The notes under the pieces were generated by a model, which ran no database searches, had not been told where the DNA came from, and saw nothing but the letters and a program-made list of their open reading frames with translations. Made by a program: the position numbers and the translations under genes. From a virus (lineage: Duplodnaviria > Caudoviricetes), in IMG/VR virus record IMGVR_UViG_3300048853_000062, positions 4,853 through 68,852 of that record: DNA of 64,000 nt, one strand, 5' to 3'. Below are positions 11,801 through 64,000 of the stretch, in pieces (positions within the stretch are counted from its first letter, which is position 1; every line of letters begins with the position of its first letter).

Positions 11801-11831
11801 TGCAGGCGCAAGGCAACTGGGAGCGCGTTTG

Positions 11832-12236: not shown

Positions 12237-13969
12237 GCCGCGTGGTGGGCACCATCAAGCACATCGGGCCGCCAGCGTCGGTGTGGTCGATCGAGGCCGC
12301 CCCGGACGTGATGATCCGACTGAAGCGCCTCATCCCGGGCGTGCGAATTGCCAAGGCAGTCGCCCTGACCATCTCGGACACCGAAGCGAACGGCCGCGAG
12401 CTGGAGTGGGTGCTGTCCCGCTGGGACTTCGCGATGACCGACGCCGACCGCGCACTCTTGCAGAAGCGTGCCGACGCTGACCGGGCACGCGAGGACCTGG
12501 TGTCCGACGTCATTGCCGGAACCGCCACGATGCTGCCCGGACCGGGGTGGCTGACCTCGAAGCTGCCGCTGCGCGACTATCAGCGTGTCGCCACCGATCT
12601 GGTGCGCGCGACGGGCGCAACTCTCATCGTCGACGAACTCGGCCTCGGCAAGACCCTCACCTCGCTGGCGCTGCTCGAGGACCCCGACGCCCGCCCCGCC
12701 CTCGCGGTGACTCTCACGGGGCTGGGACGGCAGTGGCGCCGCGAACTCGGCAAGTTCTACCCCGACCTGTCGGCGGTCGTAGTGAAGACCACCAAGGTGG
12801 TCGACGAGCTGCCGAAGCTGTGCGACCCCAACGGCGACCTGGCCTGGGACCTGATCCTCGTCAACTACGCGAAGCTGTGGGCCTGGGCCCCGGTGTTGGC
12901 GGGCAAGGTGCGCACCGTCGTCTTCGACGAAATCCAGGAGCTGCGCCGCACTGAGTCGCTGAAGTACGAGGCCGCCCAGCACGTCGCCGCGTCAGCCGAT
13001 TACGTGACCGGCCTGTCGGCCACACCGGTGTACAACTTCGGCGGCGAGATGTTCTCCGTCATGAACGTCATCCGCCCGGGCTGCCTCGGCGCCCGCGACG
13101 AGTTCCTCCGCGAATGGTCGACCAGCGGCTTCTACCAGGACGGCAACGGCAAGGTCCGTCTCAAGGACCCGGAGGCCCTGCGCGCCCTCCTCACCTCGCA
13201 CGGCCTGTTCCTGCGCCGCACCCGCGAGGACGTCGGCATCAGCCTTCCGGCGATCGAGACTATCGAGCAGGTCGTCCCCTCGGACCGCAAGACGTTCGAC
13301 GAGTTGTCGGGCAACGCGATCGAGATGGCCCGGCTCATCCTTGCCGAGGACTCGACCCGGTCGCAGCGGTGGCAGTCCGCCGGCGAACTGGACTGGCGAC
13401 TCCGTCAGGCCACCGGCATCTCGAAGGCACCGTTCGTCGCAGAGTTCGTGCGGCTGCTCCTCGAAAGCGAGCAGAAGGTTGTCCTGTTCGGATGGCACCG
13501 CGCCGTCTACGACATCTGGATGGAACGCCTCAAGACCTTCAACCCGGTCCTGTACACGGGGTCGGAATCGCCTGTGGCGAAGGCCAATGCGTACGAACGG
13601 TTCGTCGACGGTGACGCTCGGGTCCTGATCATGTCGCTCCGCTCCGGCGCGGGACTCGACGGCCTTCAGGACGTCTGCTCGACCATCGTCTTCGGCGAAC
13701 TCGACTGGTCGCCCGGCGTGCACCGCCAGGCCATCGGCCGCCTCGGTCGCCCCGGACAGAAGCACGGCGTGCTGGCCTACTTCTGCGTCGGCACCGACGG
13801 ATCCGACCCGGTCATCCTCGACACGCTGAACATCAAGGCCATGGAGTCCGACCGCCTCATCGAACCGGACCACAACAACGGAACCGCGACCCCCGCAGCG
13901 AAGCCCGAGCACATCAAACGCTTGGCCGCCGCACTACTCGAAGCCCAATCCCAGGAGGTTGCATCGTGA
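12233..13969 (+). CDS. SNF2-family (SF2) helicase
   Basis: LRDYQ, DELGLGKT, FDEIQ, LSATPVYN, SLRSGAGLDGLQ, QAIGRLGRPGQ motifs. Confidence 0.9.
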   Translation: MSRVVGTIKHIGPPASVWSIEAAPDVMIRLKRLIPGVRIAKAVALTISDTEANGRELEWVLSRWDFAMTDADRALLQKRADADRAREDLVSDVIAGTATMLPGPGWLTSKLPLRDYQRVATDLVRATGATLIVDELGLGKTLTSLALLEDPDARPALAVTLTGLGRQWRRELGKFYPDLSAVVVKTTKVVDELPKLCDPNGDLAWDLILVNYAKLWAWAPVLAGKVRTVVFDEIQELRRTESLKYEAAQHVAASADYVTGLSATPVYNFGGEMFSVMNVIRPGCLGARDEFLREWSTSGFYQDGNGKVRLKDPEALRALLTSHGLFLRRTREDVGISLPAIETIEQVVPSDRKTFDELSGNAIEMARLILAEDSTRSQRWQSAGELDWRLRQATGISKAPFVAEFVRLLLESEQKVVLFGWHRAVYDIWMERLKTFNPVLYTGSESPVAKANAYERFVDGDARVLIMSLRSGAGLDGLQDVCSTIVFGELDWSPGVHRQAIGRLGRPGQKHGVLAYFCVGTDGSDPVILDTLNIKAMESDRLIEPDHNNGTATPAAKPEHIKRLAAALLEAQSQEVAS

Positions 13970-14367
13970 CCGCACCACCCAACTGGGATCAGGACGCGTT
14001 CGCCGCCGCCTGCGACCTCATCGAGCGCACCGGCGCCAAGCAGTTCGAGGTCGGATACCTGCACGACGACGTGCCCGTGGAGAAGGCCGGCTGGTATGCG
14101 CACGCCCAGTACCACGGTGCGCGCATCACAGCGCAGGACCACCCGGGTCCGGTGCAGGCGACCGAAGCGCTGGCACGCCAACTCCTCGAGGGCGGCGTCT
14201 GCACCTACTGCGGCCTGAAGATCGCGCTGGCCGACTACCCCGGCCGGCGGTGCCGCTGGACGCGACAGGGACCGAAGTGGGTGCGCGGGTGCGCCGCAAC
14301 CCACACTGACCGCGATCAGGCGCTCGTCGACGCGGGCCGCAAGCAGGCTCGAGGTCCTCATGCCTGA
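13966..14367 (+). CDS. Hypothetical phage protein
   Basis: 133-aa ORF with GTGA overlap. Confidence 0.7.
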   Translation: MTAPPNWDQDAFAAACDLIERTGAKQFEVGYLHDDVPVEKAGWYAHAQYHGARITAQDHPGPVQATEALARQLLEGGVCTYCGLKIALADYPGRRCRWTRQGPKWVRGCAATHTDRDQALVDAGRKQARGPHA

Positions 14368-14710
14368 GCGCATCCAGCTCCGCCGCCACCGCGGCTACCG
14401 CAAGCCCGCTGGTGTCGTCGTGGTCACTCGGGGGACCGATTGGGGCAACCCGTTCGTCGTGGGACGCGGCGTGCGCATCGAGACCCCGAACCCGTACGAC
14501 AAGCAGGCACGCGACCGCGGCGACTGGTGGGTGTGGCAGTCCGTCGAGATGACACCCGCGATCGCGGTCGCACTGTTCCGGGCGTGGATCGAGTGGGGCG
14601 GCTTCGCATCGCAGATCCGAGCTGACCTGGCTGGCCGCGACCTGGCGTGCTGGTGCCGACTCGACCAGCCGTGCCACGCCGACGTCCTGTTGGAGGTGGC
14701 CAATGACTGA
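14360..14710 (+). CDS. DUF4326 domain protein
   Basis: VTRGTDWGNPF...LAGRDLACWC...CHADVLLE. Confidence 0.9.
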   Translation: MPERIQLRRHRGYRKPAGVVVVTRGTDWGNPFVVGRGVRIETPNPYDKQARDRGDWWVWQSVEMTPAIAVALFRAWIEWGGFASQIRADLAGRDLACWCRLDQPCHADVLLEVAND

Positions 14711-15320
14711 CATCGTCCGACCACCGATCCCGGCGACGTGCGAGCACCGCCCCACGATCGGCGGCGTCGTCAAACCTTGGGCCAACGTCGAACTCGCTGA
14801 TGGCCGTGTCGATTTCCGATCGCAGCATGAGAGCAAGGCGCAACGCTGCTTTCTCGAGGGGCTGTGCCAGGTGTGCGGCAACTCGGTGACACGCCCGATT
14901 GTGTTCTTCGGCGGTCCCCGCCAGGTGGCGGCGTTGCAGTTTGACGAGCCGCCGCTGCACCCTGAGTGCGCCGTGTACGCGTCGCAGGCGTGCCCGATGG
15001 TGGCTGGCCGCCTGGAGCGCTACGCGACCCGCGAGGTGGTCACCCACGGCCCGCGCGGCGCGGTCTGCTCGGACCCTGGCTGCGACTGCGGCGGCTGGGT
15101 TCCAACGCCGGGCCTGACGGTCGGCCCGGGCGGTGACCCCGCCCACGACTGGTACGCGGTCTACGTATCCGGCTACAGCGCCGGCGTCACCGACGCCCGA
15201 CCTGACCGCGTGCACGCGGGTGTGGTCCGCCCACACCAGGTGCTCGCCATCCGGCACGTGTCGAGCCCAGGAACGGGCCGTACGTGGACACGCACGACAC
15301 TCGAGGAGGTGCACGCCTGA
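14703..15320 (+). CDS. Conserved Cys-rich phage protein
   Basis: RCFLEGLCQVCG...EPPLHPECAVYASQACP. Confidence 0.75.
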   Translation: MTDIVRPPIPATCEHRPTIGGVVKPWANVELADGRVDFRSQHESKAQRCFLEGLCQVCGNSVTRPIVFFGGPRQVAALQFDEPPLHPECAVYASQACPMVAGRLERYATREVVTHGPRGAVCSDPGCDCGGWVPTPGLTVGPGGDPAHDWYAVYVSGYSAGVTDARPDRVHAGVVRPHQVLAIRHVSSPGTGRTWTRTTLEEVHA

Positions 15321-16138
15321 TGGCGAATGCCGCGGCTCTCATCAACGAAGGACTCTGGCGGAAAGACAAGGAGTTTCAGAAGCTGCCACGTCTCGCGCAG
15401 TGCACTTTCTGCCAGGTGCTGTCGCAGAAGGACCTCGATACCGCCGGCGTGCTCACACTGCACCTCGATCTGCTGGCGAAGGCATGCGACGACCTGACCG
15501 TGGAGCAGCTGAAGGCTGACTTCGCCGCGCTCGAAGCCGGCAGATTCCTGTTCGTGGACTACGACACCGACGAGGTGTTCGTCCGCTCCTACGTGCGCGT
15601 AGTGAGCGTGAAGAACCAGAACTCGTGGAAGTCGGTGCCGAAGAACGCTCGACTGGTCGGGTCGGAGAAGATCCGCCACGAGCTGGCGCAGGAACTCCGG
15701 CGGTTGCGGCGCAAGGATGCGAGCGATCTGGCCGACGAAATCGACCCCCTCTCAACCCCGTCAGAACCCCCTCCAGACCCCGTCTCAACCCCGTCTCGAC
15801 CCGGTACCCCGTCTCAACCCCGTCCGGACGGGGACAGTTCAGTACTAGTTCCAGTCCTAGTCTCACCTTCCGTTGTTGGTTCAGTTGGTGTGCGCGCACG
15901 CCCCGAATGCTCCGCACATGAAACCGATTCGGACACCAACTGCCGGGCGTGCATGCGACGCCGGCTGTGGGACGAGGAACACCGCGACGCCCTGGCAGCT
16001 GACGAACTCGACCAGCGCCGCCGTCAACGGGAGCGGGCCGCGAACTGCCCCCGCTGCCACGGCACGAACGTCTACGAGATCGGCGACGACCAGGTCGCCA
16101 AGTGCGACCCGCACCTCGAGGTGGCCGCTCATGGGTGA
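15320..16138 (+). CDS. Replication initiator protein
   Basis: N-terminal LWRKDKEFQKL...VDYDTDEVFVRSYVR as in mycobacteriophage initiators; internal Pro-rich linker carries iterons; C-terminal Cys motifs. Confidence 0.7.
   Translation: MANAAALINEGLWRKDKEFQKLPRLAQCTFCQVLSQKDLDTAGVLTLHLDLLAKACDDLTVEQLKADFAALEAGRFLFVDYDTDEVFVRSYVRVVSVKNQNSWKSVPKNARLVGSEKIRHELAQELRRLRRKDASDLADEIDPLSTPSEPPPDPVSTPSRPGTPSQPRPDGDSSVLVPVLVSPSVVGSVGVRARPECSAHETDSDTNCRACMRRRLWDEEHRDALAADELDQRRRQRERAANCPRCHGTNVYEIGDDQVAKCDPHLEVAAHG
15750..15824 (+). repeat. Three 13-bp direct repeats TCTCAACCCCGTC (candidate origin iterons)
   Basis: Exact copies at 15750, 15783 and 15812, followed by a T-richer stretch at ~15833-15890. 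Confidence 0.7.
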
Positions 16139-16484
16139 CGTAATGACGGCACCAACCGCGGCGGCCGCGACGAAGGTCGAGTTGGAGATCCCCTGCGAGT
16201 GTGGTGATTACCGCGACCACGGACCGAGCGGTTGCGGACAGCCAGCCGAGGTGTGGGCGATCATCCACGACGTCTGCGACGACTGCCGCAAGTACGAGGA
16301 CGGCAACGCCTCGCTGTACCTGTGCAGCGAGTGCTGGCAGCGATTCTCGGCCAGCATTGACGGCACCCTCGTCTTCGCGGCGAAGACCAGGCAACTCGCT
16401 CAGTGCGAGACGTGTCTGTTGCCGATCCGGCGTCGGACTGACGTCATCCGGAGGGTCGTTGGCATCCGGGGGACGAAGCGGTGA
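16131..16484 (+). CDS. Cys-rich hypothetical protein
   Basis: Several CxxC motifs; operon coupling. Confidence 0.6.
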   Translation: MGDVMTAPTAAAATKVELEIPCECGDYRDHGPSGCGQPAEVWAIIHDVCDDCRKYEDGNASLYLCSECWQRFSASIDGTLVFAAKTRQLAQCETCLLPIRRRTDVIRRVVGIRGTKR

Positions 16485-16780
16485 GCGACGAGACCGCCCC
16501 CAGCGTCCACGGCCGACCGCAGGCGGGGAACCGCCCCAACCCCACGGGTCTCATCCAGGTGCCTGACGAGCCGTGGGTGGACGACGCTCTGTGCGCCCAA
16601 ACCGACCCGGAGGCGTTCTTCCCCGAGAAGGGCGGGTCGACGGCCGACGCGAAACGCATCTGCGGCCTGTGCTCGGCCCGGGAGGAATGCCTGCGGTACG
16701 CCCTGGACCACGATGAGCGGTTCGGCATCTGGGGCGGCCACTCCGAGCGGGAACGCCGGGCGATGAAGAGGTCCGCATGA
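16481..16780 (+). CDS. whiB: WhiB family transcription factor
   Basis: ALCAQTDPEAFFP...ICGLC...ECLRYAL...FGIWGG. Confidence 0.95.
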   Translation: MSDETAPSVHGRPQAGNRPNPTGLIQVPDEPWVDDALCAQTDPEAFFPEKGGSTADAKRICGLCSAREECLRYALDHDERFGIWGGHSERERRAMKRSA

Positions 16781-16998
16781 ACGACGACGACCGCCAGTAC
16801 GCCCGCGGCCCCGGCCGGCACCACCGCAGCCGCGGGCCCGTAGTCGCCGCCTACGCTGACACCGGCGCCATCGACCGCTCCTGCCCGAACTGCGGCGCCA
16901 ACCCGCAGGAGTACTGCATTCACGACAACGGCGTGCAACGCAAGATGCCGTGTCCGAACCGGCTACCGCACAACCCCGACACCGGAGGCAGCGAATGA
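16777..16998 (+). CDS. Small zinc-finger protein
   Basis: CPNCGANPQEYC...MPCPNR. Confidence 0.7.
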   Translation: MNDDDRQYARGPGRHHRSRGPVVAAYADTGAIDRSCPNCGANPQEYCIHDNGVQRKMPCPNRLPHNPDTGGSE

Positions 16999-18170
16999 CC
17001 GACGACGAGCGCCCCGTGCACCGCTGCATTGCCGGCCAGGGCTGCCGCCGCGCCGAAGTCACCGAGGGTGGCCGCCAGGCGGCCCTCACCGATGGCCCTG
17101 ACACTCTGTGCGACGCCTGCCGTGGCGCAGTCGAATACGCCATCACAGACATGCCCGAAATCTGGATGCTCCTCCATGGCGCAATCGGCGACCAATCTCG
17201 CCGCGCCGGCGGCCAGAAAGTCAAACGCTCCCGGTCGGCGCCGATCAACCTCAACACCGACGTCGACGCACTCAAGGCCGCCATCGTCGAGTGGATGGTC
17301 GCCGCCGCCGCACCCATTTCCGAAGTGCTCAACACCGACGATCCGCACCCGCACAACAACACCGACGCCGAGCAGTTCCGGGTCGTCCTCGCGTGCACCC
17401 GACTGCTCTCAACCCACGTCGACGACCTCCTCGCCACACCGACTGACAACGTGAGCGTGTGGCTCTCAGCCTCGGAGACTGCCTATCCGGGGGAGCGGTA
17501 CTACGTCGACGACCACGGCGTGACGCACTCGGGCACGGGCATTCAGTCGATGGACGGCGTCGACTTGGCGTTAAAGCTGGTGCAGCTGCGCAGCAGCGCC
17601 CGGTCACTGCTGGCCCTGACGACTCCGCACGACAAGTTGTCGGTGCCATGCCCCCACTGCAACACCTACGAGCTGGTGCGAACTCACCGCACCATCCGCA
17701 CAGTCGGCGGCAAGAACCGTGAGATCGACCAAATCAACTGCGGCAACTGCGGTCTCGACTGGCCGTACGAGCGATACCGCCAACTATGCCTGATCTGGGT
17801 CAAGGAGGACGAGATGGAACGCGAGAAACTGCAGAAGCAGCTCGACCACGAGAAGGCGCGCCGCGAGATGGCCGAATGGCTGCTGGCCAAACGGGAATGG
17901 CAACTCAGCCTCGCCGCAGAATGCACCAACATCACGGCTGCGGACTTCGCCGCCACCGTCCTCGAGGTCGACGACACTCCGTCCGACCTCCTCATGTCCG
18001 ATAATGAATTGGCTGCCTACCTCAGCGTCGCAGACTCCACCATCCGCTCCTGGGCCACACGCGGACACATCACCCGCCACACCGCCGACGACGGCTCCAC
18101 CCTCTACAACGCTGCAGAAGTCATCGCCCACCACAACTCCGACCGAAAGGCCACCCGATGCTCGGCCTGA
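16995..18170 (+). CDS. Large Zn-finger plus C-terminal HTH protein, candidate late-gene regulator
   Basis: CPHC/CGNC pairs, coiled coil, terminal MSDNELAAYLSVADSTIRSWATRG HTH; last gene of the early operon. Confidence 0.6.
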   Translation: MTDDERPVHRCIAGQGCRRAEVTEGGRQAALTDGPDTLCDACRGAVEYAITDMPEIWMLLHGAIGDQSRRAGGQKVKRSRSAPINLNTDVDALKAAIVEWMVAAAAPISEVLNTDDPHPHNNTDAEQFRVVLACTRLLSTHVDDLLATPTDNVSVWLSASETAYPGERYYVDDHGVTHSGTGIQSMDGVDLALKLVQLRSSARSLLALTTPHDKLSVPCPHCNTYELVRTHRTIRTVGGKNREIDQINCGNCGLDWPYERYRQLCLIWVKEDEMEREKLQKQLDHEKARREMAEWLLAKREWQLSLAAECTNITAADFAATVLEVDDTPSDLLMSDNELAAYLSVADSTIRSWATRGHITRHTADDGSTLYNAAEVIAHHNSDRKATRCSA

Positions 18171-18313
18171 CCATCGCCATCCTCGTTATCGCGGCCACTG
18201 CATGCTGCTACTCAGCTCCTGCGCACAGCGTTTGGCCGCCATCCGGAAGGCCGCGGAGGTGGATGTGGCCCGGACTTTCCACCCGCGCAACCGGGTCGCT
18301 GATCGCTGCGTGA
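18158..18313 (+). CDS. Possible small membrane or secreted protein
   Basis: GAAAGG RBS, hydrophobic N-terminus; weak C-terminal half. Confidence 0.35.
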   Translation: MLGLTIAILVIAATACCYSAPAHSVWPPSGRPRRWMWPGLSTRATGSLIAA

Positions 18314-55451: not shown

Positions 55452-56610
55452 TCATCGCGAGGTCAGCGACCAAAACGCCAGCGGGGTAAGGGGTTCGAAT
55501 CCCCTTAGCTCCACCAAAGAGGTCTTAGTTGAACCCGCGCCCGAAAGGATGTCGGCAAGAGTAGGAGCTAACCCAGAAGAATACCGATCATCAGCTGCTC
55601 GATCCGAGGCTCCCGCAAGGGGGCCTCGTTTCGTAGTTGTTGTCGATGCTGTGGTCCCAGTTCGCGCGGCTGTTGTCAATTTCACGGCAGCGTGAAGTTC
55701 GTCGAACGGCGCCTTCAGTTCACTCGTCTGCACGCCTTGGTCGTCGAGGAAGATGCGTTGGTAGTAGGTCTCATTGAGATTCCGGCGAATCGAGTCTGTG
55801 CCGCGGGCGTACGTCACCGCGGGGTCGGACATCAGATCAAGAGCGCCGAAAAGCACTTCGGCACCGACAGCAAGCACTTCGCCGGTGTTGGCGAGTCGGG
55901 CCTCCGTGACGTTCCGTTCGGTCTGGATCTTGCGCAACTTCTCCCTCACCTTCGCCTGCGGGAGTCGGTCGTCGGCGAGCAGGTCAAGAAGCCGATCTTT
56001 CTTGGCCTCTAGCTCCCTAAGCTTGCGGCTGACGGCTGCGTGCCGTTCGGCGGTGCTGCGTTGTTCTTCGCCGAGCGCTTCGTCGAGCAGTTGGCGCACC
56101 TGTCGATGAAGTTGGTCGGCAGATCCAGCGTTGTGTAGTGGTCGACGATGGCCTGCTCGACGTGGGCGGCTGGTAGGTACGGCAGATCGCAAACGCCGTC
56201 CTGGCGGCCGCGGCACAGGAAATACCCGTAGCGGTTGCCGAACCGATTGGTCGCTTCGGTGTAGATCAGGCGTGAGGTGCGTTCGTTTCTCTCGCAGCGG
56301 TCGCAGAACAGAATGCCTTTGAGGTAGTGCTGGAGGACTCGGTCACCTTGGCCGCTCTTGCTGCGGAAGGCGATCACTTCCTGGACCCTGTCGAACAAAA
56401 GGGGGTCAACAATCGGTTCGTGCCGTCCGTCGTAGATCTCGCCTTTGTAGACGATGCAGCCGATGTAGTAGCGGTCTTGCAACATCCGGTGCAGCCACTT
56501 GAAGGTGACGGGACGTTCTGGGAGCCCGCCCGCGGCGCGTGCCGTGAGACCGAGGTCGGCCATCGTTGCTTCCAGTCGTTCGAGTCCGTAGTCGCCGGTG
56601 GCGTAGAAGA
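55452..56610 (-). pseudogene. Large serine recombinase: N-terminal catalytic domain missing and 1-nt frameshift at ~56102
   Basis: YATGDY...MLQDRYYIG...GRHEPIV recombinase domain, CDRC/YFLC zinc ribbon, coiled coil; restoring GAC-CAG joins ORFs 56009-56662 and 55452-56216. Confidence 0.85.
55489..55516 (+). other. Prophage attR core: 3' end of a tRNA-Ala (T-arm plus acceptor strand plus CCA)
   Basis: AGGGGTTCGAATCCCCTTAGCTCCACCA; T-stem AGGGG/CCCCT with TTCGAAT loop; no D-arm or anticodon arm upstream. Confidence 0.85.
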
Positions 56611-57236
56611 ATTCAAGCTCTTCGACAGAGACGACCAGAAATTCATGGAAGGTCTGTTCCATGAGATACCTTCAGACCCAACCGCAGACAGCACCTTCGT
56701 GGATGACGACGAGTCGAATGGCGATGACGACACGGGATATTCCGATGATTCGTTGCAGATCAAGCAATCGACAGAGCTAAGTGACATCACTGCTACCTTC
56801 GTCGATGAGGACAGGTTGGGTGCGATCACGGGTCAGTACAACAACTTGAGCCCCGAGGAACGGGGCGGCTTTCCTGAAGCAGCTCGGAATCGACTCGGGT
56901 GAGATAAATGAGATCAAACCAAAGAAGATCAAACCGATTCAGGAACGTCAGGCGAAGAGGAGAAACCTCAACGAGCATGCTAAGTCGATAACGACAGATA
57001 TATTGAAGCATCTTGGCGTCAAGCTGTATGATCGAGATTTTAATCCGCGGTTCAGGAATTTTGCTTTTGTTCAGCAGCACGTCAATCGATGGATAAATTC
57101 AGACCTAGGAATCAAAGCAAAAGAGCGAAGCCAGCTTTCACTGGCGCAGCTCAAAGAATACGAAGAAGCTGGTCGCTTTGATTTACTAGTCCAGAAGGGT
57201 ATAGATCACTACACGGCCATCTCAAAGAAAAAGTAA
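56611..57236 (+). pseudogene. 3' fragment of an unidentified gene (acidic linker plus basic helical C-terminus), frameshifted at GGGG 56862-56865
   Basis: Removing one G gives YNNLSPEERAAFLKQLGIDSGEINEIKPKK...HYTAISKKK; AT-rich; no 5' end. Confidence 0.6.
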
Positions 57237-57577
57237 TGCTTTTAGATGATACCTCTACTTTTCGGTAGGCTTCATCTAAAGGAAAAGCAGAATCTAGACG
57301 TAGCGTTCCTTTACGGTGAAGGGGTCGGGTGGTTGTTGTCCGACATAATCGGGTGCCGAGCCTGAAATGACACCGTGGCGAAGGCATTGCTGAGCGCGTT
57401 ATCGACCAACGCCGTCGGAACGATTCAGCGAGCGTGCAGTGGTACCACGACAGGCGTGAATGGCTCGATCCGCGACGAAGGCACTTAGCGATCTCCCCCG
57501 TGCGTATCCCTCGTTTTTACCCTGACTCAGTAGCGCACGGCGGACGGCACCCGGCCGCCGAGGTAGAGAAACACCGC

Positions 57578-58072
57578 CTAACGGTGGTAGTGCGCATATA
57601 CGTGCTTAATGTGTGCGATCAGCATCATCTCGCGCGCGATGGCATCAGAATTCTTTGTCAAAGTTCTGCCATCGAGGTAGACCCGTCGGTCGACGACATA
57701 GTTGTAGAACCCAACCCCGATGATGTCGTTAGCTTGCCAGCTCAAGTTGGCTCGCTTGTGCAGAACCCAGGAAGACAAGAGTGCCCCTAGGTCATCGCGG
57801 GTCAGATCGTTCACGCGAGCGAGAATCGCGCCCATGAACGTGAGGTCTGCTGGGTCGCCGAAGTTCAGCTGTCGCTGTCCAGTTGCTTCCGACATCCTGA
57901 GGTTAACGTCCGAATAGGCGGTTCCCATAGGATCGGCCCTGCGTGCCGTCTGCACCTTGGCGACGAGGAAGTCGATGACTGCGTGGACATAGCGGTCCGC
58001 CTCCTCCTCGTCGAAGCCGGCCTGCGCGGCGTAGCGGTAGAAGCGCTCGGCGTATAACTCACGTTGGGTCAT
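57578..58072 (-). CDS. Hypothetical protein
   Basis: 164-aa ORF, AGGAG RBS, divergent from the ATPase/protease pair. Confidence 0.7.
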   Translation of the reverse strand: MTQRELYAERFYRYAAQAGFDEEEADRYVHAVIDFLVAKVQTARRADPMGTAYSDVNLRMSEATGQRQLNFGDPADLTFMGAILARVNDLTRDDLGALLSSWVLHKRANLSWQANDIIGVGFYNYVVDRRVYLDGRTLTKNSDAIAREMMLIAHIKHVYAHYHR

Positions 58073-58326
58073 GGGTCGCTCCTGCTGTCGGGACTGCCGT
58101 CGTGCGCAGTCGCGTCCGGTTGTAGGGACGAGGTGTGCGGGCGGTTCATGTCGGTGGCGAGCGGCATCGTATTACTTGGCGGCTTCATCATGGCGCGTTC
58201 GTCGGATGCGACCTGAGTCAAGCCCCGACGGGCGTGGTTTGATCTGATAGGGGTGCGTCGCTGGGTAGACTCGGTCTGCGATCTGCCGACCTGGTCAGGG
58301 CGCGATGAACTGGAGGGAGGTCGGCT

Positions 58327-59325
58327 ATGGCAACGAATGACCAGCTCAAGGCGCTTGTCAAGAGCCATGCCGACCGCGACGATCCCCAGTTCTATTCCGT
58401 CGCCATGCAGGTTGCGGCGAAGGCCGCTCGGGCCGGGCAGGGCAAGTTCGCTCAGGAGCTTCGTAACCTTATTGATGATTTGCGCGAGCGGGGAGTAGCG
58501 CAGTCACGAATTGCCGCGGTCGTGCCGGTCACTCAACCACGCGGCGAGCTCAGTTCGTTGCTTACCGTCAGTTATCCTGATGCGCGCGCCGCTGACTTAG
58601 TCCTTTCGCCCGCACTTGGGCAACAGCTGCGACAGGTTCTCCTTGAACAGCGGCAACGTGATGTCTTGCGGCGCCACGGACTTCGTCCGGCCAGCCGCGT
58701 CCTCCTGATTGGGCCACCTGGGACCGGAAAGACGTCGACGGCGAGAGTCATTGCAGGCGAACTCGGCTTGCCGTTGTTCGCCATCCGGCTCGACACGATC
58801 ATCACCAAGTACATGGGGGAGACCGCGGCCAAGCTGCGCCTGATCTTCGATGCACTCGTGGAAACGCAAGGCATCTACCTCTTCGATGAGGTAGATGCGC
58901 TGGCTGGTGATCGCGCGGCTTCGAACGATGTTGGCGAGATTCGTCGTGTCCTGAACTCGTTTCTGCAGTTTCTGGAGGAAGACCGGTCCGATAGCGTCGT
59001 GGTTGCTGCGACGAATCATCCGCAGTTGCTTGACATTGCGCTCTTGCGACGCTTCGACACTGTCATGGATTTCGCGCTACCGAATGATGACGGTATTCGC
59101 GCTGTCATCACTAACCGGCTCACCTCTTTGCTTAGTGCCAATTTGAGCTGGAAACGCGTGATTGAAGCTGCGGGGGGTCTGAGTCACGCGGAGATCACGA
59201 TCGCCGCTGAAAATGCCGCCAAGCGGACGGTGCTTTCGGGTCGAAAGCGAACTCTGACTGACGATCTCGTGACAGCACTTAAAGAGCGACCGCGGACGAG
59301 GGCGCGGCGTGACTCGATTCCATAG
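58327..59325 (+). CDS. ietA: AAA+ ATPase (IetA-like)
   Basis: GPPGTGKT, LFDEVD, VLNSFLQFLE, AATNHPQLLDIALLRRFD; GGAGG RBS. Confidence 0.85.
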   Translation: MATNDQLKALVKSHADRDDPQFYSVAMQVAAKAARAGQGKFAQELRNLIDDLRERGVAQSRIAAVVPVTQPRGELSSLLTVSYPDARAADLVLSPALGQQLRQVLLEQRQRDVLRRHGLRPASRVLLIGPPGTGKTSTARVIAGELGLPLFAIRLDTIITKYMGETAAKLRLIFDALVETQGIYLFDEVDALAGDRAASNDVGEIRRVLNSFLQFLEEDRSDSVVVAATNHPQLLDIALLRRFDTVMDFALPNDDGIRAVITNRLTSLLSANLSWKRVIEAAGGLSHAEITIAAENAAKRTVLSGRKRTLTDDLVTALKERPRTRARRDSIP

Positions 59326-59330
59326 GCAGC

Positions 59331-61883
59331 ATGGCTGAACGCGATAGACCGCACATTGTGGTGCCGGCCCTCCCGGCATCCGAGCCGTTCACCCTCGCAG
59401 GCGCCGGCGGCGGAACTGAAAAGGAGCCGTTCACTGGGGACCGGGCGGGTCACGGTCGTCGGCTCGCACGAGAGCTTCAGGACGCGTTGGCTCCGACCAG
59501 TGATGAACCCGAATCCGCTGGGATCTACATAACTTTCGTGTCTTTCCCAGGGCTGGAGCTCGCGTTGGAGAGTCTGGACCCACAGTCCGCGGGTGAACAG
59601 CCCGAGTTGCTAGTGGTGCGCGAGGTTGAGACCGCGGACGGCGCTGTTCAGATGGCAACTGTCTACATACCCGACGGGAAGAAGGAGTACTTCCTTAAGC
59701 GTCTCACCGCCTATACCGACACAGCGACGAACGACAAGGCGCGGCATGCTGCGCTTGTTGAGGCTATTCAGTCCATTCGGCGGGCGACGATTCGTGAGTT
59801 GTGGACCGACCCGGAGGACCTGTTCCCGGACGACCAACGAGAGTCGCGGTGGTGGGAGGTGTGGTTACGCAACCGCGACAACCATGAGCGCGAGAGGTTT
59901 ACCGCGTTCGTGGCGGAACGACAATTGCGTACCAGCCAGCACTACCTCGGATTCGGCGACAGAACCGTAGTCCTGCTGCGCGCGACAGCTGATGAGCTAT
60001 CTCAGACGTTCGAATCACTCGATGACATCGCTGAGCTACGGCGACCGCATGATGTCGCGAGTTTCCTCACTGAGCTCCCCGCCTTCGAGCAGACATCGTG
60101 GGCAGAGGACCTACTGAACCGTCTGCAGCCCGCCGGTGACGGGGCTCCTGTGGTTTGCCTGCTAGACACCGGAGTGCAAGACAGTCATCCGCTGCTGACT
60201 GCATCGCTTGATGCATCCGACCTACATGTAGCCGACGCTACTTGGCAACTGCAACCGCAGAATCCGCACGGAACAGAGATGGCAGGTCTTGCCCTCTACG
60301 GAGATGTTCAAGCCGCCATCACCGACGGCGCTACGGTCCAACTCCGACACCGGTTGGAATCCGTAAAGTTCTTGCCCGACAACGGTGTTAACGACCCCGA
60401 TCTTTACGGTGCGGTCACTGCCCGCTCAGTCGACCGACCTGAGATTCAAGCGGCCGACCGCCCCCGTGTCTTTATGCTCGCCGTCACCGCGCCGCGGCCC
60501 GACTCCACCGATAGCGTCACCGAGCCTACCGAGCGTCATGAGGCGGGCCGCCCTACATCTTGGTCAGCGACCATCGACGCACTTGCCTTCGGCAGGGCTA
60601 TCGATGACACCGACCCCGAGTTCACCTACTTGGACCGTGACGAACCGCGTCGACCCCGACTGTTCGTTGTCTCGGCCGGAAACATCAGAGATATTAGAGC
60701 CACCGACGACCACCTTGCCCGCAGTGATGTGGAACCCGTCGAAGACCCGGCGCAATCGTGGAACGCACTCACAGTGGGTGCGTACTCGGCGCACGACGAC
60801 ATGGCTGGTGCGCCAACGGGATTCGAGGGCTACACGCCGATTGCGCCGCGTGGCGAACTCGCCCCGGTTAGCCGTACCTCGGTGGTGTTCGACCGGAAGA
60901 AGTGGCCGTTCAAACCCGACGTAGTGGCCGACGGCGGGAACGTAGCCACTTCGCTGGACCACACCGGAGTTGATACGCCCCCCAACCTGGCATTGCTTAC
61001 AACTCGACTGCAAGGATCGGGCCAAGGTCTCTTCACCACAACACGCGATACCTCCGCAGCGACGGCTCAGGTCGCAGCGATCGCTGCCGATATTCAAGCC
61101 GCCTATCCAACTCTCAAGCCCGAGACAGTACGTGGGCTCATCGTCCACTCGGCGCAATGGACCGAAGCGATGCGAAACCGCTTCGCATCGGAGTCGAACA
61201 AGACTCGCCTTGCCAGCCTGCTACGCCGATACGGCATGGGCGTGCCCGACGCTGGACGGGCACTCCGAAGCGCAGTCGACGCGCTCACTCTCATTGCGGA
61301 GGCACGCATACACCCATACGAACAAGAAGCCGGAAGCGCAGCAAAAGTCCGCGAGATGAACCTTCATCAGCTCCCCTGGCCGACAGACGAGTTGGCGTCC
61401 CTGGGCGAGGTGATAGTTCGCCTACGCGTCACACTGTCCTATTTCGTCGAGCCAAATCCCTCCAGTCGCGGCTGGACGGGCAGATACGTGTATCCCTCCC
61501 ACGGGTTAAGGTTCGCGACGCGGCGACCGGAGGACAGCGTCGAGACGTTCCGCCAGCGAATCAACACTCGGGCACGCGCCGAAGGCCAAAAACCACCATC
61601 GCTTGACACCGAGGTGGGCTGGCTGTTCGGGAGTAACCAGCAACAAAGCCCGGGGTCACTCCACACCGATGTGTGGTGCGGTTCGGCCGTTGCGCTGGCC
61701 AGCAAAGGCGCCGTGGCGGTGTACCCCGTCGCGGGATGGTGGAAGAACCGAAGGCGCTATGACCAAAGCGATCAGGGAGTCGACTACTCGCTGATTGTCA
61801 GCATCGAGTCACCTGAGGTCGAGATCGATCTGTGGACACCGGTTGCGCAGCAGATCTCGGCTGAAGTGCAGATCGAGACGTGA
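59331..61883 (+). CDS. ietS: S8 subtilisin-like serine protease (IetS/Y4bN-like)
   Basis: Triad motifs LLDTGV, HGTEMAG and DTSAATA; VSAGN oxyanion motif; KPDVVADGGN. Confidence 0.85.
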   Translation: MAERDRPHIVVPALPASEPFTLAGAGGGTEKEPFTGDRAGHGRRLARELQDALAPTSDEPESAGIYITFVSFPGLELALESLDPQSAGEQPELLVVREVETADGAVQMATVYIPDGKKEYFLKRLTAYTDTATNDKARHAALVEAIQSIRRATIRELWTDPEDLFPDDQRESRWWEVWLRNRDNHERERFTAFVAERQLRTSQHYLGFGDRTVVLLRATADELSQTFESLDDIAELRRPHDVASFLTELPAFEQTSWAEDLLNRLQPAGDGAPVVCLLDTGVQDSHPLLTASLDASDLHVADATWQLQPQNPHGTEMAGLALYGDVQAAITDGATVQLRHRLESVKFLPDNGVNDPDLYGAVTARSVDRPEIQAADRPRVFMLAVTAPRPDSTDSVTEPTERHEAGRPTSWSATIDALAFGRAIDDTDPEFTYLDRDEPRRPRLFVVSAGNIRDIRATDDHLARSDVEPVEDPAQSWNALTVGAYSAHDDMAGAPTGFEGYTPIAPRGELAPVSRTSVVFDRKKWPFKPDVVADGGNVATSLDHTGVDTPPNLALLTTRLQGSGQGLFTTTRDTSAATAQVAAIAADIQAAYPTLKPETVRGLIVHSAQWTEAMRNRFASESNKTRLASLLRRYGMGVPDAGRALRSAVDALTLIAEARIHPYEQEAGSAAKVREMNLHQLPWPTDELASLGEVIVRLRVTLSYFVEPNPSSRGWTGRYVYPSHGLRFATRRPEDSVETFRQRINTRARAEGQKPPSLDTEVGWLFGSNQQQSPGSLHTDVWCGSAVALASKGAVAVYPVAGWWKNRRRYDQSDQGVDYSLIVSIESPEVEIDLWTPVAQQISAEVQIET

Positions 61884-61975
61884 GAGCGCCGTCGGTGGCC
61901 ATGTCTATCGTGTAAACCGCAGCCGCGAACCCGTACGGAAACGGCCAATCGATCGCCTACTTGGAGAGGAGCGGC

Positions 61976-63151
61976 ATGAAGGTCTTCATCTCCTCGGTCA
62001 CGTATCTGCTCAAGGGGGAGCGCGGGGCACTCCCGCCGTTCCTGAAGTTGTTCGATCACGAGCCGCTGAGGTTCGAGGACTTCGAAGCCCAGGACCGGTC
62101 GAGCCGGGAGGCATGCCTGGCCGGGGTCGAGGCGGCGGACGTCTACGTCCTCTTGCTTGGCCCGCGTTATGGAACACCGTTTCCCGATACCGGTCTGTCT
62201 CCGACGGCGGAGGAGTTCCGGCGCGCTCGTCAACGTGACATCCCCATCCTTGTGTTCAACAAGACCACGGATGAGAAAGACGAACCGGCCCAAGTTGGCT
62301 TCAAGAACGAGGTCGGCCACTACGTGAACGGGCGCCTGTGGCGTTCGTTCACCGATCCGGCCAGCTGCAATCAGGCGGTCGGCGAAGCGTTGAAAGCACT
62401 TGACGCAGAACAGGGTCCGATTCCGCGCACGACACCGCAGGAACCTGTGACGGTGCCGTGGTTGAGCGAGATCCAGCTTAAGGCGGCCATAATTCCGGCA
62501 AGCGGATTCGTCGGCGGGCGCAACGGCGCCGTGCCGACCTCGGTGTCCGCGCCGGTTCTCGAATTCCACGTGCTGGGTATCGGCGTCACGAGCGCGCCCA
62601 GTCTGCGGCAACTCGAAGACCGCGCTCGGCAGTTGGCGCGCGACATGCGCTACATCGGGTTTGTCTCGGACGGTGATCAGTTGGTCGTCGGGGCCGCCGA
62701 CGGTTTCGGGTGGGCGGTGCGTCCACCGGCTACGTCTTCGTCGGGTTCGTTCCCCGAGCAGCTAACCGTCGAGCAATTCCGCGGTGCACTCATCCACCCG
62801 GCAGGAGTGTGCGCGTTCCGGTCGCTCGACACCGACATTATTGGTGCACTAGTCGACCAAAAGAGCCTGCAGACCGACCTCGCTTCGCTGTTCGCCGTTA
62901 TCTCGGCACAGCTCCCCGAGGCAGAGTGGGCCGCACTGGCCGCCGGGTTGTCTCGGGCAGACCGGGTCGGCGAGGGTGACCCGCGCATCGTCGGGACTCG
63001 CAACGCAGGGCGGCTGGGGATGACGGGACTGGCCGAACTCCGAGCCGGTGGCGACTTCGTAGTACCGACCCGTCGGCTCGCAGGTTCGTTTGGCGATCTC
63101 GGTGCAGATCTGGCGCACGCGATCATCGCGCAGCTTAGGCAACGGCGGTAG
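61976..63151 (+). CDS. DUF4062 (TIR/NDT-like) domain protein with an unknown C-terminal domain
   Basis: MKVFISS...ER...CLAGVEAADVYVLLLGPRYG...SPTAEEFRRA. Confidence 0.85.
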   Translation: MKVFISSVTYLLKGERGALPPFLKLFDHEPLRFEDFEAQDRSSREACLAGVEAADVYVLLLGPRYGTPFPDTGLSPTAEEFRRARQRDIPILVFNKTTDEKDEPAQVGFKNEVGHYVNGRLWRSFTDPASCNQAVGEALKALDAEQGPIPRTTPQEPVTVPWLSEIQLKAAIIPASGFVGGRNGAVPTSVSAPVLEFHVLGIGVTSAPSLRQLEDRARQLARDMRYIGFVSDGDQLVVGAADGFGWAVRPPATSSSGSFPEQLTVEQFRGALIHPAGVCAFRSLDTDIIGALVDQKSLQTDLASLFAVISAQLPEAEWAALAAGLSRADRVGEGDPRIVGTRNAGRLGMTGLAELRAGGDFVVPTRRLAGSFGDLGADLAHAIIAQLRQRR

Positions 63152-63228
63152 GTGGCAACGCAACATGCGCCCTTATTGACGCAGTGCGCTTCCGGCGACC
63201 ACGGCGCGTGGTCATTGCGGATCGAACG

Positions 63229-63666
63229 TCAGATCCAGCCTGGCCGACCTCGCAACTGAAGGCCCTGCCGCCGAAGAGCCGTGGCGACGGTCGTGTGTGA
63301 GACACCGTAGCGATCACCAAGCCAAGCCAGCGATTTCCCCGCAGCGTAGAGGGTTGCGGCCTCATTGACCTGTTCGTCATTCATGCCTTGACGGCGGATA
63401 GCGACCCCTTCTTCGCAGAGCACGTCTGCGACGCGAGTCTTGGAGATGCCGTACCGGTTGCCGATCCCCTGAGTGGTCTCGCCGACCTGGTAGCGGTGCA
63501 CAATGTCGATGACATCTTCGGTGGTCAGGAAGCGTTTGGAGCGGGGTCTCGGACCCTCCTGAGCCGATAGAGATGGTCATGCTGGTGATTCGGTGATGCG
63601 TTTACGCAGGTCAGCCCAATTGTTACAGAGGTGACCGAGGTTCGAGTTTCTTCCTATTGCCTCCAC
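63229..63666 (-). pseudogene. Tandem-HTH protein beginning at the att core; in-frame TGA at codon 30
   Basis: GTG GAG at 63666 is in frame with ORF 63229-63501; HTHs TTQGIGNRYGISKTRV and SLAWLGDRYGVSHTTV; TGA at 63579-63577. Confidence 0.65.
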
Positions 63667-63667
63667 C
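63661..63667 (+). other. Right att core (CTCCACC) of the serine-recombinase island
   Basis: Identical to the last bases of the tRNA-Ala fragment at 55509-55515. Confidence 0.6.
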
Positions 63668-64000
63668 CATCAACAGCAGGTCACAGGCTCAGCCTGGGCC
63701 TTAACAAGACACGGGCGCACAGCGCCGGTGGTCGCCAGGTCGAGTTCATCAGGCGCCAGGCGAAGACCGACGCCTAGTCCGGATGCTGCAGTCGAGCAGC
63801 GCTCATGCAACGGATTCCAGCGCATCGATCCTGACCGGCTACGAAATGGCGGGTTGTGCCACTTTTGCGACGCAAGCCCGGCAAACGGCGACTACATTCG
63901 CAGACGTAACGCGCACGACGTCACTTCGCGGGGGTGGAGATGGACGAACACGACCGTCGATGGCTGTCCGCGGTGGTGCGTCAATGCAGCGACGAGCAGC

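What the first reader, a model, noticed from the sequence alone, without database searches (positions are those of the whole stretch)
55509..63667. Excision would fuse the serine recombinase in frame to an HTH domain at the other end of the island
Seen on the minus strand: the left end reads ...ACC TCT TTG GTG GAG CTA (T-S-L-V-E-L; GTG at 55514, in frame with the recombinase). The right end reads GTG GAG GCA ATA GGA AGA AAC TCG (V-E-A-I-G-R-N-S; GTG at 63666, in frame with the tandem-HTH ORF ending at 63229). Crossover in the shared GGTGGAG core gives ...TKTSL-VE-AIGRNSNL...-HTH-HTH. Inference: attP lies inside the integrase gene. The circle would encode an integrase-HTH fusion, while the integrated form encodes a short-tailed integrase plus a separate HTH whose GTG start is in the core. 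This would be a recombination-state switch for directionality or autoregulation, analogous to integration-dependent repressor truncation. This copy is dead (TGA at codon 30 of the HTH, broken recombinase).
Basis: partly seen in the sequence, partly recalled or inferred. Interest (0 to 1): 0.85.

Follow-up and report, generated by a model that had tools for sequence, protein, structure and literature searches.

The report
Serine integrase gene spanning its attP
This is the decayed remnant of a mobile element whose integrase gene is cut in two by its own insertion reaction, so the free element encodes an integrase with an extra double DNA-binding tail and the inserted element a tail-less one; the layout is real and conserved in hundreds of relatives, but what the tail does is untested.

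Summary
Window 55509-63666 is an 8.2-kb dead remnant of a family of tRNA-Ala-specific integrative (conjugative-type) elements of Mycobacterium, Mycolicibacterium, Gordonia and Nocardia. In every intact relative the large serine recombinase (LSR) gene has no stop of its own. It reads ...K-T-S-L|V-E into the antisense tRNA. At the other end, island homology begins exactly at the same GTGGAG. From that GTG a 145-codon frame runs without indels into a tandem HTH domain (8 of 8 DNA ends examined; 352 protein clusters found). The stretch between core and HTH evolves as coding sequence (dN/dS 0.35). The reconstructed attP is a typical LSR site: an imperfect inverted repeat whose arms are 5 bp longer than the tRNA arm. 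One Gordonia contig carries the unrecombined junction, with the LSR 3' end fused in frame to the HTH frame. The fusion is therefore well supported. Its role (directionality, regulation, or none) is untested. LSR genes spanning attP have been noted in print twice (DsiB, phage Shimadzu). This scan has also reported the layout before on other DNA, including dual-HTH tails in unrelated LSR lineages. A whole-domain swap in this element family is a new variant.

The parts
55483..55520 (+). 38-bp imperfect direct repeat (36/38) of the 3' end of tRNA-Ala(GGC). It is the attR of the neighbouring 57-kb tyrosine-integrase prophage and also supplies the tRNA-side (B') arm of the serine-recombinase island's attL.
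   Evidence: no complete tRNA in the window
55509..55514 (-). Left copy of the GTGGAG crossover core (V-E in the recombinase frame)
55515..55546 (-). P arm of attP. It is coding sequence for the recombinase C-terminus (...SGAGSTKTSL) and carries the GGTTC(A/G)A(C/G)TAAGA motif.
   Evidence: Near-identical in 10 loci, including a 39%-identical Nocardia recombinase
55515..56608 (-). Large serine recombinase remnant, equal to residues 208-end of intact ~600-aa homologues. The catalytic domain is missing. There is a net -1 frameshift near 56100. The frame then runs on through the core into antisense tRNA and prophage DNA to a stop at 55452.
   Evidence: Pfam Recombinase and Zn_ribbon_recom; 89% identity to P0003 residues 208-376; alignment A1
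56660..57330 (.). Low-GC (46-51%) filler where the recombinase N-terminus should be; no family match
58327..61883 (+). Cargo: IetA (AAA ATPase, 58327-59325) and IetS (S8 subtilase, 59331-61883), an anti-phage pair
   Evidence: Pfam; PADLOC IetA E 9e-74 and IetS E 8e-38
61961..63151 (+). Cargo: DUF4062-domain protein (396 aa)
   Evidence: Pfam PF13271 E 2e-20; no PADLOC match
63229..63666 (-). 145-codon frame starting at the core GTG. It encodes a long helix, a linker and two HTH motifs, and is interrupted here by TGA at 63579-63577 (codon 30). In the excised form it would be the C-terminal extension of the recombinase.
   Evidence: Pfam HTH_38/HTH_58; 352 homologous clusters; AF2 models
63629..63660 (-). 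P' arm of attP (GCAATAGGAAGAAACTCGAACC...), coding for residues 3-12 of the HTH frame. It is the inverted-repeat partner of the P arm.
   Evidence: low dS (0.25) in codons 1-10
63661..63666 (-). Right copy of the GTGGAG core; island homology with 7 relatives starts exactly here
63667..64000 (.). Host-side flank (B arm side), unrelated to the flanks of the 7 other elements; the record ends at 64000

Best explanation
Window 55509-63666 is a decayed copy of a family of integrative, conjugative-type elements of Mycobacteriales. These elements insert at the 3' end of tRNA-Ala genes using a large serine recombinase (LSR) whose attP lies inside its own gene.

In the unrecombined form (a circle or a tandem junction) the LSR reading frame runs ...GSSKTSL-VE-AIGRNSNL... 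It continues for 145 more codons: a long helix, a flexible linker and a bipartite double-HTH DNA-binding domain. The product would be a protein of about 715 aa. Crossover within GTGGAG, which is the antisense of the tRNA acceptor 3' strand, splits this gene. At the tRNA side the LSR keeps all its catalytic and core DNA-binding domains, but acquires an arbitrary tail of 25-104 aa read from antisense tRNA. At the other island end the helix-linker-HTH frame is left without promoter, ribosome-binding site or upstream coding sequence of its own.

Shown: the anatomy, its conservation, the coding constraint and one natural unrecombined junction. Inferred: that the fused isoform is made only from the excised element, and that losing the HTH tail on insertion changes what the enzyme does (integration competence, site choice or regulation).

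In this window the element is dead. The LSR has no catalytic domain and a frameshift. The HTH frame carries a nonsense codon. The transfer genes have been replaced by IetAS and DUF4062 cargo. A tyrosine-integrase prophage has since inserted between the element and the tRNA.
For: (1) All 14 intact LSR homologues (55-75% identity, ~600 aa, with Resolvase, Recombinase and Zn-ribbon domains) end ...K(T/N)(S/T)L|VELRG(I/F/L)EPLT..., which is antisense tRNA-Ala. The DNA junction CTTTG|GTGGAG|CTAAGGGG recurs in 10 loci, including a 39%-identical Nocardia LSR.

(2) An HTH homologue (62-66% identity) lies on the same strand as the LSR, 25-42 kb away, in 3 of the first 5 genomes searched. The Gordonia oryzae element measures 26.1 kb between its two cores.

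(3) At 8 of 8 HTH ends, homology starts exactly at GTGGAG and the flanks are unrelated. The 145 codons align without a single indel, and the frame is open in 7 of 8; the window copy has one TGA.

(4) The HTH frame has 352 homologous clusters at E<=1e-10. Of the best 120, 115 carry the (V/M)E..G... island-edge motif at or near the N-terminus (80 by pattern match and 35 more on inspection of the printed N-termini). At least 50 begin exactly at the core GTG.

(5) Codons 11-45 between the att arm and the HTH have dN/dS 0.35 with a third-position excess (464 changes against 239 and 289). The HTH has dN/dS 0.20. Codons 1-10 have low dS (0.25), as expected for a DNA site.

(6) The reconstructed attP is an imperfect inverted repeat, GGTTCGAGT...ACTCGAACC. 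The TCGAACC motif lies 15 nt from the core in P' but 10 nt from it in the tRNA arm. This matches the 5-bp attP/attB offset I recall for LSR zinc-ribbon binding sites (from memory, not checked here).

(7) Contig C30 of Gordonia sp. ABSL1-1 begins inside an LSR 3' end and reads ...LAGILSGTGSSKNTL|VEAIRRNSKL... through both HTH motifs to a stop. This is a natural P arm-core-P' arm junction with a 217-aa open frame. Its downstream genes are syntenic with the G. oryzae element.

(8) AF2 on that natural fragment predicts one helix (residues 63-92) that spans the junction at V67-E68. The stand-alone frame folds as helix 2-26, a disordered stretch 27-48 and two three-helix HTH units.
Against: No full-length fused LSR-HTH protein appeared among longer proteins in the 5.8-billion-protein search; only two read-throughs from host flanks did. 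None appeared in the top 150 of the exhaustive representative search, where the ten long hits scanned with Pfam were multi-HTH repeat proteins without recombinase domains. None was found in plasmids.

The Gordonia assembly is broken inside the LSR gene and holds a second, integrated copy. That junction could therefore come from a tandem array rather than a free circle, and the full length of that LSR is not seen.

No expression or read-level data could be obtained. In more distant Nocardia relatives the tRNA-side junction is conserved, but neither a P' arm nor a close HTH homologue was found.

The function of the tail is wholly inferred. Engineered integrase-RDF fusions drive excision, not integration (title and abstract of PMC5737554). 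This argues against the tail being a classical RDF, because it is attached in the state that needs integration.
Confidence: 0.8

Rival explanations
1. The 145-codon frame is an independent gene, such as a regulator or an excision helper. It is translated from the core GTG in the integrated state, by read-through or leaderless transcription. The in-frame continuity with the LSR in the circle is a tolerated by-product of packing attP between two genes.
For: Gene callers place the start at the core GTG in at least 50 of 120 clusters. GTG is a valid start. No complete fused protein is on record. I recall that some LSR systems use small HTH-type directionality factors, for example phiRv1 Xis (from memory, not checked here).
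Against: The frame begins at the very first island base, so no element-encoded promoter or ribosome-binding site can precede it when integrated, and the 8 flanks share no sequence. The GTG is fixed by the tRNA sequence, so its presence is not evidence of use as a start. In the circle no stop separates the LSR from this frame, so the fusion must be translated whenever the LSR is. Codons 11-45 are under protein-level constraint, so translation must begin at or upstream of the core. The predicted helix spans the junction.
Confidence: 0.2
2. Suicide-type layout. The HTH tail is essential for LSR activity, so insertion inactivates the integrase and locks the element in place until a complete copy is supplied. 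This is the pattern of the archaeal SSV-type integrases.
For: attP lies within the gene, and the gene is partitioned on insertion, as described for archaeal suicidal integrases (PMC8371274). Decayed copies such as this window, and stacked elements at the same tRNA, are common.
Against: The integrated LSR keeps the Resolvase, Recombinase and Zn-ribbon domains (Pfam) and the region containing the probable coiled coil (a weak Cortexillin-coil match). From my knowledge of the LSR family, these parts are sufficient for recombination in characterised LSRs. Conjugative elements must excise to transfer. The family is widespread at two tRNA-Ala isoacceptors in four genera, which implies repeated mobility.
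Confidence: 0.15
3. The GTGGAG pair in the window is a chance repeat and the real island ends lie elsewhere.
For: The 7-mer count in the window is within chance expectation (16 against 11.75 +/- 3.5) and another copy lies inside the island at 60503.
Against: Homology with 7 independent elements starts exactly at the right-hand core, and homology with 10 loci ends exactly at the left-hand core. An unrecombined junction with the predicted sequence exists in nature.
Confidence: 0.01

Closest known systems
Dehalococcoides ssrA-island serine integrase DsiB (McMurdie et al. 2011, PMC3146451)
   Same: A large serine recombinase gene always overlaps attL at its 3' end, and the stop codon occurs only outside the island. 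[quoted passage not shown]
   Different: The target there is ssrA, not tRNA-Ala. No alternative C-terminal domain was identified at the other end, and the host-encoded tail was treated as probably non-functional. Here the other end supplies a conserved 145-residue helix-linker-double-HTH module.
Roseburia phage Shimadzu large serine integrase (Cornuault et al., bioRxiv 10.1101/575076)
   Same: The integration site lies within the LSR gene, so the prophage and the free form encode different integrases.
   Different: That is a phage rather than a conjugative-type island. The two forms differ only in the last ~20-22 residues; no domain is gained or lost.
Archaeal SSV-type 'suicidal' tyrosine integrases (review PMC8371274)
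   Same: attP lies inside the integrase gene, insertion into a tRNA gene partitions the gene, and the arrangement has consequences for directionality.
   Different: Those are tyrosine recombinases of archaea, and the review calls the layout exclusive to archaea. Their split removes part of the enzyme proper. Here a bacterial serine recombinase keeps its catalytic and core DNA-binding domains and loses only an accessory DNA-binding tail.
Integration-dependent immunity of mycobacteriophages and M. abscessus prophages (Dedrick et al. 2021, PMC8092301, which cites the original description)
   Same: attP lies inside a coding gene, often at a tRNA 3' end in Mycobacterium. The free and integrated forms therefore differ at the C-terminus, and the recombination state sets protein function.
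   Different: The split gene there is the repressor, the integrase is a tyrosine recombinase, and what is removed is a short degradation tag of 20-35 residues.
Mycobacterium AICEs with serine recombinases at tRNA-Leu (Ghinet et al. 2011, PMC3218068)
   Same: Actinobacterial integrative conjugative-type elements of Corynebacteriales that use serine recombinases and target a tRNA gene, which the paper notes is rare.
   Different: A different tRNA. The passages read (a term search, not the whole paper) say nothing about attP lying inside the recombinase gene or about an HTH tail. Relatedness of those recombinases to this family was not tested here.
Engineered serine integrase-RDF fusions (Olorunniji et al. 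2017, PMC5737554)
   Same: A C-terminal fusion to a serine integrase resets its directionality, which shows that such a tail can act as a switch (title and abstract).
   Different: That fusion is artificial. The fused partner is an RDF that promotes attL x attR, whereas the natural tail here is attached in the state whose next reaction is attP x attB.

Membership tests
Large serine recombinase (serine integrase) | N-terminal resolvase-type catalytic domain (PF00239) | tested here: not met
   The window copy lacks residues 1-207. Intact relatives P0002-P0017 carry PF00239. The window copy is therefore a pseudogene of a member.
Large serine recombinase (serine integrase) | Recombinase domain (PF07508), zinc beta-ribbon (PF13408) and a coiled-coil insert | tested here: met
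   PF07508 E 2e-5 and PF13408 E 2e-7 on 56009-56662. There is a coiled-coil-like stretch in 55452-56216 (a weak Cortexillin-coil match). Identity to P0003 is 89%.
Large serine recombinase (serine integrase) | Short att sites with imperfect dyad symmetry, minimal identity between attP and attB, and attP arms longer than attB arms | tested here: met
   The shared core is 6 bp. The P and P' arms carry GGTTCGAGT and ACTCGAACC. The motif sits 15 nt from the core in P' and 10 nt from it in the tRNA arm. The host-side B arm shows no consensus.
LSR genes that span their own attP (DsiB / Shimadzu type) | No stop codon between the recombinase body and the island end; the stop lies in host DNA | tested here: met
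   Tails of 25-104 aa are read from antisense tRNA-Ala and beyond in 10 loci. The window stop is at 55452.
LSR genes that span their own attP (DsiB / Shimadzu type) | The other island end continues the same frame | tested here: met
   All 8 ends are in frame with no indel in 145 codons, and 7 of 8 are open. 115 of 120 clusters carry the edge motif.
LSR genes that span their own attP (DsiB / Shimadzu type) | The unrecombined (attP) form has been observed | tested here: met
   Gordonia sp. ABSL1-1 contig C30 carries P arm-GTGGAG-P' arm with a continuous 217-aa frame. Circle and tandem array cannot be told apart.
Archaeal suicidal (SSV-type) integrase | Tyrosine recombinase fold and chemistry | tested here: not met
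   The enzyme is a serine recombinase. It is an analogue in layout only.
Integration-dependent immunity | attP inside the repressor gene; integration removes a C-terminal degradation tag | tested here: not met
   The split gene here is the integrase and the removed part is a 145-aa DNA-binding module. Whether the stability of the two isoforms differs was not tested.
Integrative conjugative / mobilisable element of actinobacteria | Transfer and replication genes between the att ends | tested here: not met
   The window copy carries only IetAS, DUF4062 and orphan ORFs. Intact relatives carry a 740-aa TrwB-like protein (faint match), Replic_Relax, an N6_N4 methyltransferase, ArdA and an Xre-type HTH next to the LSR. 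Conjugation itself was not tested.

The most novel reading that the evidence does not exclude
The element encodes two integrase isoforms selected by its own recombination state. The excised form makes an LSR carrying a bipartite HTH domain; the inserted form makes an LSR without it. This domain swap would be a built-in directionality or commitment switch: for example, the tail could be needed for attP x attB synapsis or for repressing transfer genes. That could replace or complement a separate directionality factor. Together with the dual-HTH tails that this scan has noted in unrelated LSR lineages, it would point to a general and largely overlooked principle of serine-integrase control.
Probability: 0.4. 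Interest if true: 0.85.

Novelty: new variant of a known kind. Interest (0 to 1): 0.7.

Why it matters
Serine integrases are major genome-engineering tools, and their directionality is normally explained by a separate, hard-to-find directionality factor. Here a natural family attaches or removes a whole DNA-binding domain on the integrase through the recombination event itself. If the two isoforms behave differently, this is a self-contained memory of integration state that could be copied in synthetic circuits.

It also matters for annotation. Every database entry for these integrases carries a meaningless tail translated from antisense tRNA. The 145-aa 'HTH proteins' (352 clusters) are probably orphaned C-terminal halves. 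Catalogues of LSRs that take the prophage-form ORF would then miss the true full-length enzyme. The family also adds a second actinobacterial case of serine-recombinase insertion at a tRNA, which was reported as rare.

Tried and rejected
(1) Searched for the unrecombined junction with the exact pattern TCTTTGGTGGAG-N7-GAAGAA in metagenome contigs (90 hits) and viral contigs (4 hits). The best-scoring hits, ranked by identity to a 68-nt attP reference, all lacked flanking similarity, so these are chance matches. In hindsight the pattern was too strict, because the Gordonia junction has ACTTTG.

(2) Searched for fused proteins. The 'longer' search with the HTH frame gave only two flank read-throughs. 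In the exhaustive search, the ten long hits scanned with Pfam are multi-HTH repeat proteins. A regex over all fetched proteins found nothing.

(3) Plasmids and phages: no LSR homologue in PLSDB, only a 38%-identical HTH in a Microbacterium plasmid, and no blastn match in phages.

(4) Empty-site search in congeners using host flanks failed. One flank belongs to a multicopy family and the other is not conserved in 40 genomes. attB is therefore reconstructed, not observed.

(5) Pattern search for a P' arm in Nocardia and other genomes lacking an HTH hit. The first try had the wrong spacer. The corrected try gave only chance-level matches with 2-3 mismatches.

(7) Foldseek against the PDB gave only weak matches (best E 1.3e-3), to bipartite or paired-like HTH domains (Tc3, Mos1, Pax6). 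I use this as a description of the fold class, not as homology.

(8) The loci for G. bronchialis and GCA_003071765.1 are not in the genome store, so their far ends could not be fetched.

(9) The M. helveticum copy has a duplicated segment in the P' arm and a broken frame, so it is another decayed copy.

Full report
WHAT IS IN THE WINDOW.
The window is the last 64 kb of a 68,852-base provirus record. No complete tRNA lies in the window. A full tRNA-Ala(GGC) sits just upstream of it, directly followed by a 402-aa tyrosine integrase. A 38-bp imperfect copy (36/38) of the tRNA 3' end lies at window 55483-55520.

To the right of it, on the minus strand, lie the following features.
- A large serine recombinase (LSR) remnant at 56608->55515. 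It carries Pfam Recombinase and Zn_ribbon_recom domains and is 89% identical to residues 208-376 of a 602-aa homologue. Its catalytic domain is missing and it has a net -1 frameshift near 56100.
- A low-GC filler at 56660-57330.
- An IetA/IetS defence pair and a DUF4062 protein on the plus strand.
- A tandem-HTH frame at 63666->63229 with a TGA at codon 30.

IS THE REPEAT MORE THAN CHANCE?
On its own it is not. GGTGGAG occurs 16 times in the window against 11.75 +/- 3.5 expected, and a third minus-strand copy lies inside the island. The case rests entirely on relatives.

THE tRNA-SIDE END IN RELATIVES.
Nineteen longer homologues of the LSR C-terminal part were found. Fourteen intact ones (~600 aa, 55-75% identity, with Resolvase, Recombinase and Zn-ribbon domains) were aligned. 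All of them end ...LADILSGxGSSK(T/N)(S/T)L-VELRG(I/F/L)EPLT..., followed by one of two tails. Those tails are the antisense translations of tRNA-Ala(CGC) or tRNA-Ala(GGC).

At the DNA level the junction ...GGTTCGAGTAAGA(C/A)C(T/A)CTTTG|GTGGAG|CTAAGGGG... recurs in 10 loci from Mycolicibacterium, Mycobacterium and Gordonia. It also occurs, with a few changes in the arm, in a Nocardia LSR only 39% identical. None of these genes has a stop before the island edge. The tails read from host DNA are 25-104 residues long and unrelated beyond the tRNA.

Intact islands carry a TrwB-like 740-aa protein (faint match), Replic_Relax, an N6_N4 methyltransferase, ArdA and an Xre-type HTH next to the LSR. This is an integrative conjugative or mobilisable gene set. 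In Gordonia bronchialis a tyrosine-integrase element is stacked between the tRNA and the LSR, as in the window.

THE FAR END IN RELATIVES.
A homologue of the window's HTH frame (62-66% identity) lies on the same strand as the LSR in 3 of the first 5 genomes searched, at 32, 42 and 25 kb. In G. oryzae the two cores are 26.1 kb apart on one contig.

I collected eight HTH ends as DNA: the window, three genomes and four metagenome or isolate contigs. In all eight, similarity begins exactly at GTGGAG and the preceding 32 nt share nothing. From that GTG, 145 codons align without a single indel. The frame is open in seven of the eight, and the window's TGA aligns with Arg in six relatives.

The HTH frame has 352 homologous clusters at E<=1e-10. 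Of the best 120, 80 match the island-edge motif (V/M)E(A/L)(I/V)(G/R)(R/T)(N/T/Y)SN by pattern. Another 35 show it on inspection of the printed N-termini, giving 115. At least 50 begin exactly at the core GTG. Because the LSR frame always reads L-V-E across the core, and this frame always starts V-E at the core, continuity is fixed family-wide.

CODING OR DNA SITE?
Nei-Gojobori estimates over the eight sequences give three patterns.
- Codons 1-10 (the att arm): dS 0.25.
- Codons 11-45: dS 0.97 and dN/dS 0.35, with a third-position excess (464 changes against 239 and 289).
- The HTH region: dN/dS 0.20.

The stretch between the att arm and the HTH is therefore translated in this frame, so translation must begin at or before the core.

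In the integrated state everything upstream of the core is non-conserved host DNA. The element can then supply no promoter or ribosome-binding site. In the unrecombined state the upstream sequence is the LSR gene, with no intervening stop. The parsimonious reading is that this frame is the C-terminal part of the LSR.

THE att SITES.
Joining the conserved arms gives an attP with imperfect dyad symmetry, with GGTTCGAGT on the left and ACTCGAACC on the right. The TCGAACC motif is 15 nt from the core in P' and 10 nt from it in the tRNA (B') arm. As far as I recall, a 5-bp offset between attP and attB half-sites is what is described for zinc-ribbon-domain binding in LSRs; I did not check this in a paper. 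By symmetry the crossover dinucleotide would be the central GG of GTGGAG; this is an inference. The host-side B arm has no consensus. An empty site could not be recovered, so attB is reconstructed rather than observed.

A NATURAL UNRECOMBINED JUNCTION.
Contig C30 (16,989 b) of Gordonia sp. ABSL1-1 begins inside an LSR 3' end. It reads ...LALSLAGILSGTGSSKNTL|VEAIRRNSKL... through both HTH motifs to a stop, a 217-aa open frame over P arm-GTGGAG-P' arm. Its next genes (564, 355 and 381 aa on the opposite strand) are syntenic with the HTH-proximal part of the G. oryzae element.

The same genome also has a different, integrated copy that reads into tRNA-Ala, and the assembly is fragmented within the LSR gene. 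I therefore cannot tell whether C30 derives from a circle or from a tandem array. Either way the predicted fusion exists as real DNA.

STRUCTURE.
AlphaFold2 with 55 homologues models the 145-aa frame as a long helix (residues 2-26), a disordered stretch (27-48) and two three-helix HTH units (mean pLDDT 82). On the natural 217-aa Gordonia fragment one helix (63-92) spans the junction at V67-E68. Foldseek finds only weak matches (best E 1.3e-3). They go to bipartite or paired-like DNA-binding domains of Tc3 and Mos1 transposases and Pax6. I use this as a description of the fold class only.

WHAT WAS NOT FOUND.
No full-length fused protein turned up in the protein searches. There was no plasmid or phage form. 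The exact-pattern scan found no junction, but the pattern was too strict. Read-level evidence could not be obtained. In Nocardia relatives the far end was not identified.

MECHANISM AND RIVALS.
Shown: attP lies in the LSR gene, and insertion exchanges a conserved helix-linker-double-HTH module for arbitrary host-encoded residues. Inferred: the fused isoform is produced from the excised element, and the exchange matters.

The tail is unlikely to be a classical directionality factor. Engineered integrase-RDF fusions favour attL x attR (PMC5737554, title and abstract), whereas the natural tail is attached in the state whose next reaction is integration. More plausible roles are help with attP x attB (extra site binding) or regulation in the excised state.

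There are three rivals. One is an independent HTH gene started at the core GTG (0.2). One is a suicide-type inactivation as in archaeal SSV integrases (0.15). One is chance, which the data refute.

COMPARISON WITH THE LITERATURE.
- McMurdie et al. 2011 noted that Dehalococcoides dsiB always overlaps attL, with its stop outside the island. They speculated that it is fully functional only on the circle.
- Cornuault et al. noted that phage Shimadzu recombines inside its LSR gene, which changes the last ~20-22 residues.
- A review of archaeal tyrosine recombinases calls att-in-integrase 'suicidal' systems exclusive to archaea.
- Integration-dependent immunity splits the repressor gene, not the integrase.
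- Ghinet et al. 2011 described Mycobacterium AICEs with serine recombinases at tRNA-Leu and called tRNA targeting by serine recombinases rare. The passages I read do not mention this layout.
- A term search of Durrant et al. 2022 found no mention of tRNA targets or of att sites inside the recombinase gene.

Earlier notes of this scan report the same principle on other DNA, including dual-HTH tails in comM-targeting LSRs. The HTH frame itself has no look-alike among earlier notes.

VERDICT.
The functional interpretation remains open. This is a new variant of a known but barely studied kind. I score interest at 0.7.

Noticed in passing
record upstream of the window to window 55520 (G000:C1:3132-60372): A ~57-kb prophage lies between the complete tRNA-Ala(GGC) and the recombinase remnant. 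It is bounded by a 38-bp imperfect repeat (36/38) and has a 402-aa tyrosine integrase next to the tRNA. The repeat extends 4-5 nt past the tRNA end into the serine-recombinase island's P arm (...CCA AAGA). This suggests the phage inserted after the island was already in place.
   Followed up: partly
window 58327-63151: The cargo of the dead island is an IetA/IetS (AAA ATPase plus S8 subtilase) defence pair followed by a DUF4062 protein with no PADLOC match. A 164-aa orphan ORF with no family lies on the other strand at 57578-58072.
   Followed up: partly
window 56660-57330: A low-GC (46-51%) stretch with no family match replaces the first ~207 codons of the recombinase. Its origin is unknown.
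   Followed up: no
L003 (Gordonia bronchialis DSM 43247, CP001802) 10001-18184: The same stacking as in the window. The LSR ends in a tRNA-Ala fragment, a second element with a tyrosine integrase follows, and only then comes the intact tRNA-Ala(CGC). That second element also carries a small resolvase-like gene and an HTH_7 fragment.
   Followed up: no
L131, L132, L134 (metagenome contigs): Genes next to the HTH end are often defence-related: DndB with an HNH protein inside the island (L131), a CD-NTase/Cap15 CBASS module in the flank (L132) and a Schlafen/AlbA_2-like protein (L134). The family appears to carry, or sit in, defence hot spots.
   Followed up: no
proteins P0137 and P0139: In two HTH homologues the host flank reads ...VELR immediately before the island edge. 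This means an antisense tRNA 3' fragment sits directly upstream of the core, probably a scar of stacked insertions.
   Followed up: no
L137 (Mycobacterium helveticum, G069:C388): The P' arm carries a tandem duplication (GAGGCAATAGG twice) and the HTH frame is broken, so this is another decayed copy.
   Followed up: partly
L021 host flank (G001:C1:3281385-3282399): The DNA next to the island end in Mycolicibacterium sp. SCSIO 43805 belongs to a multicopy family. It has several copies in that genome and up to 15 matches per genome in other genomes of the genus, at 65-94% identity. It was not identified.
   Followed up: no
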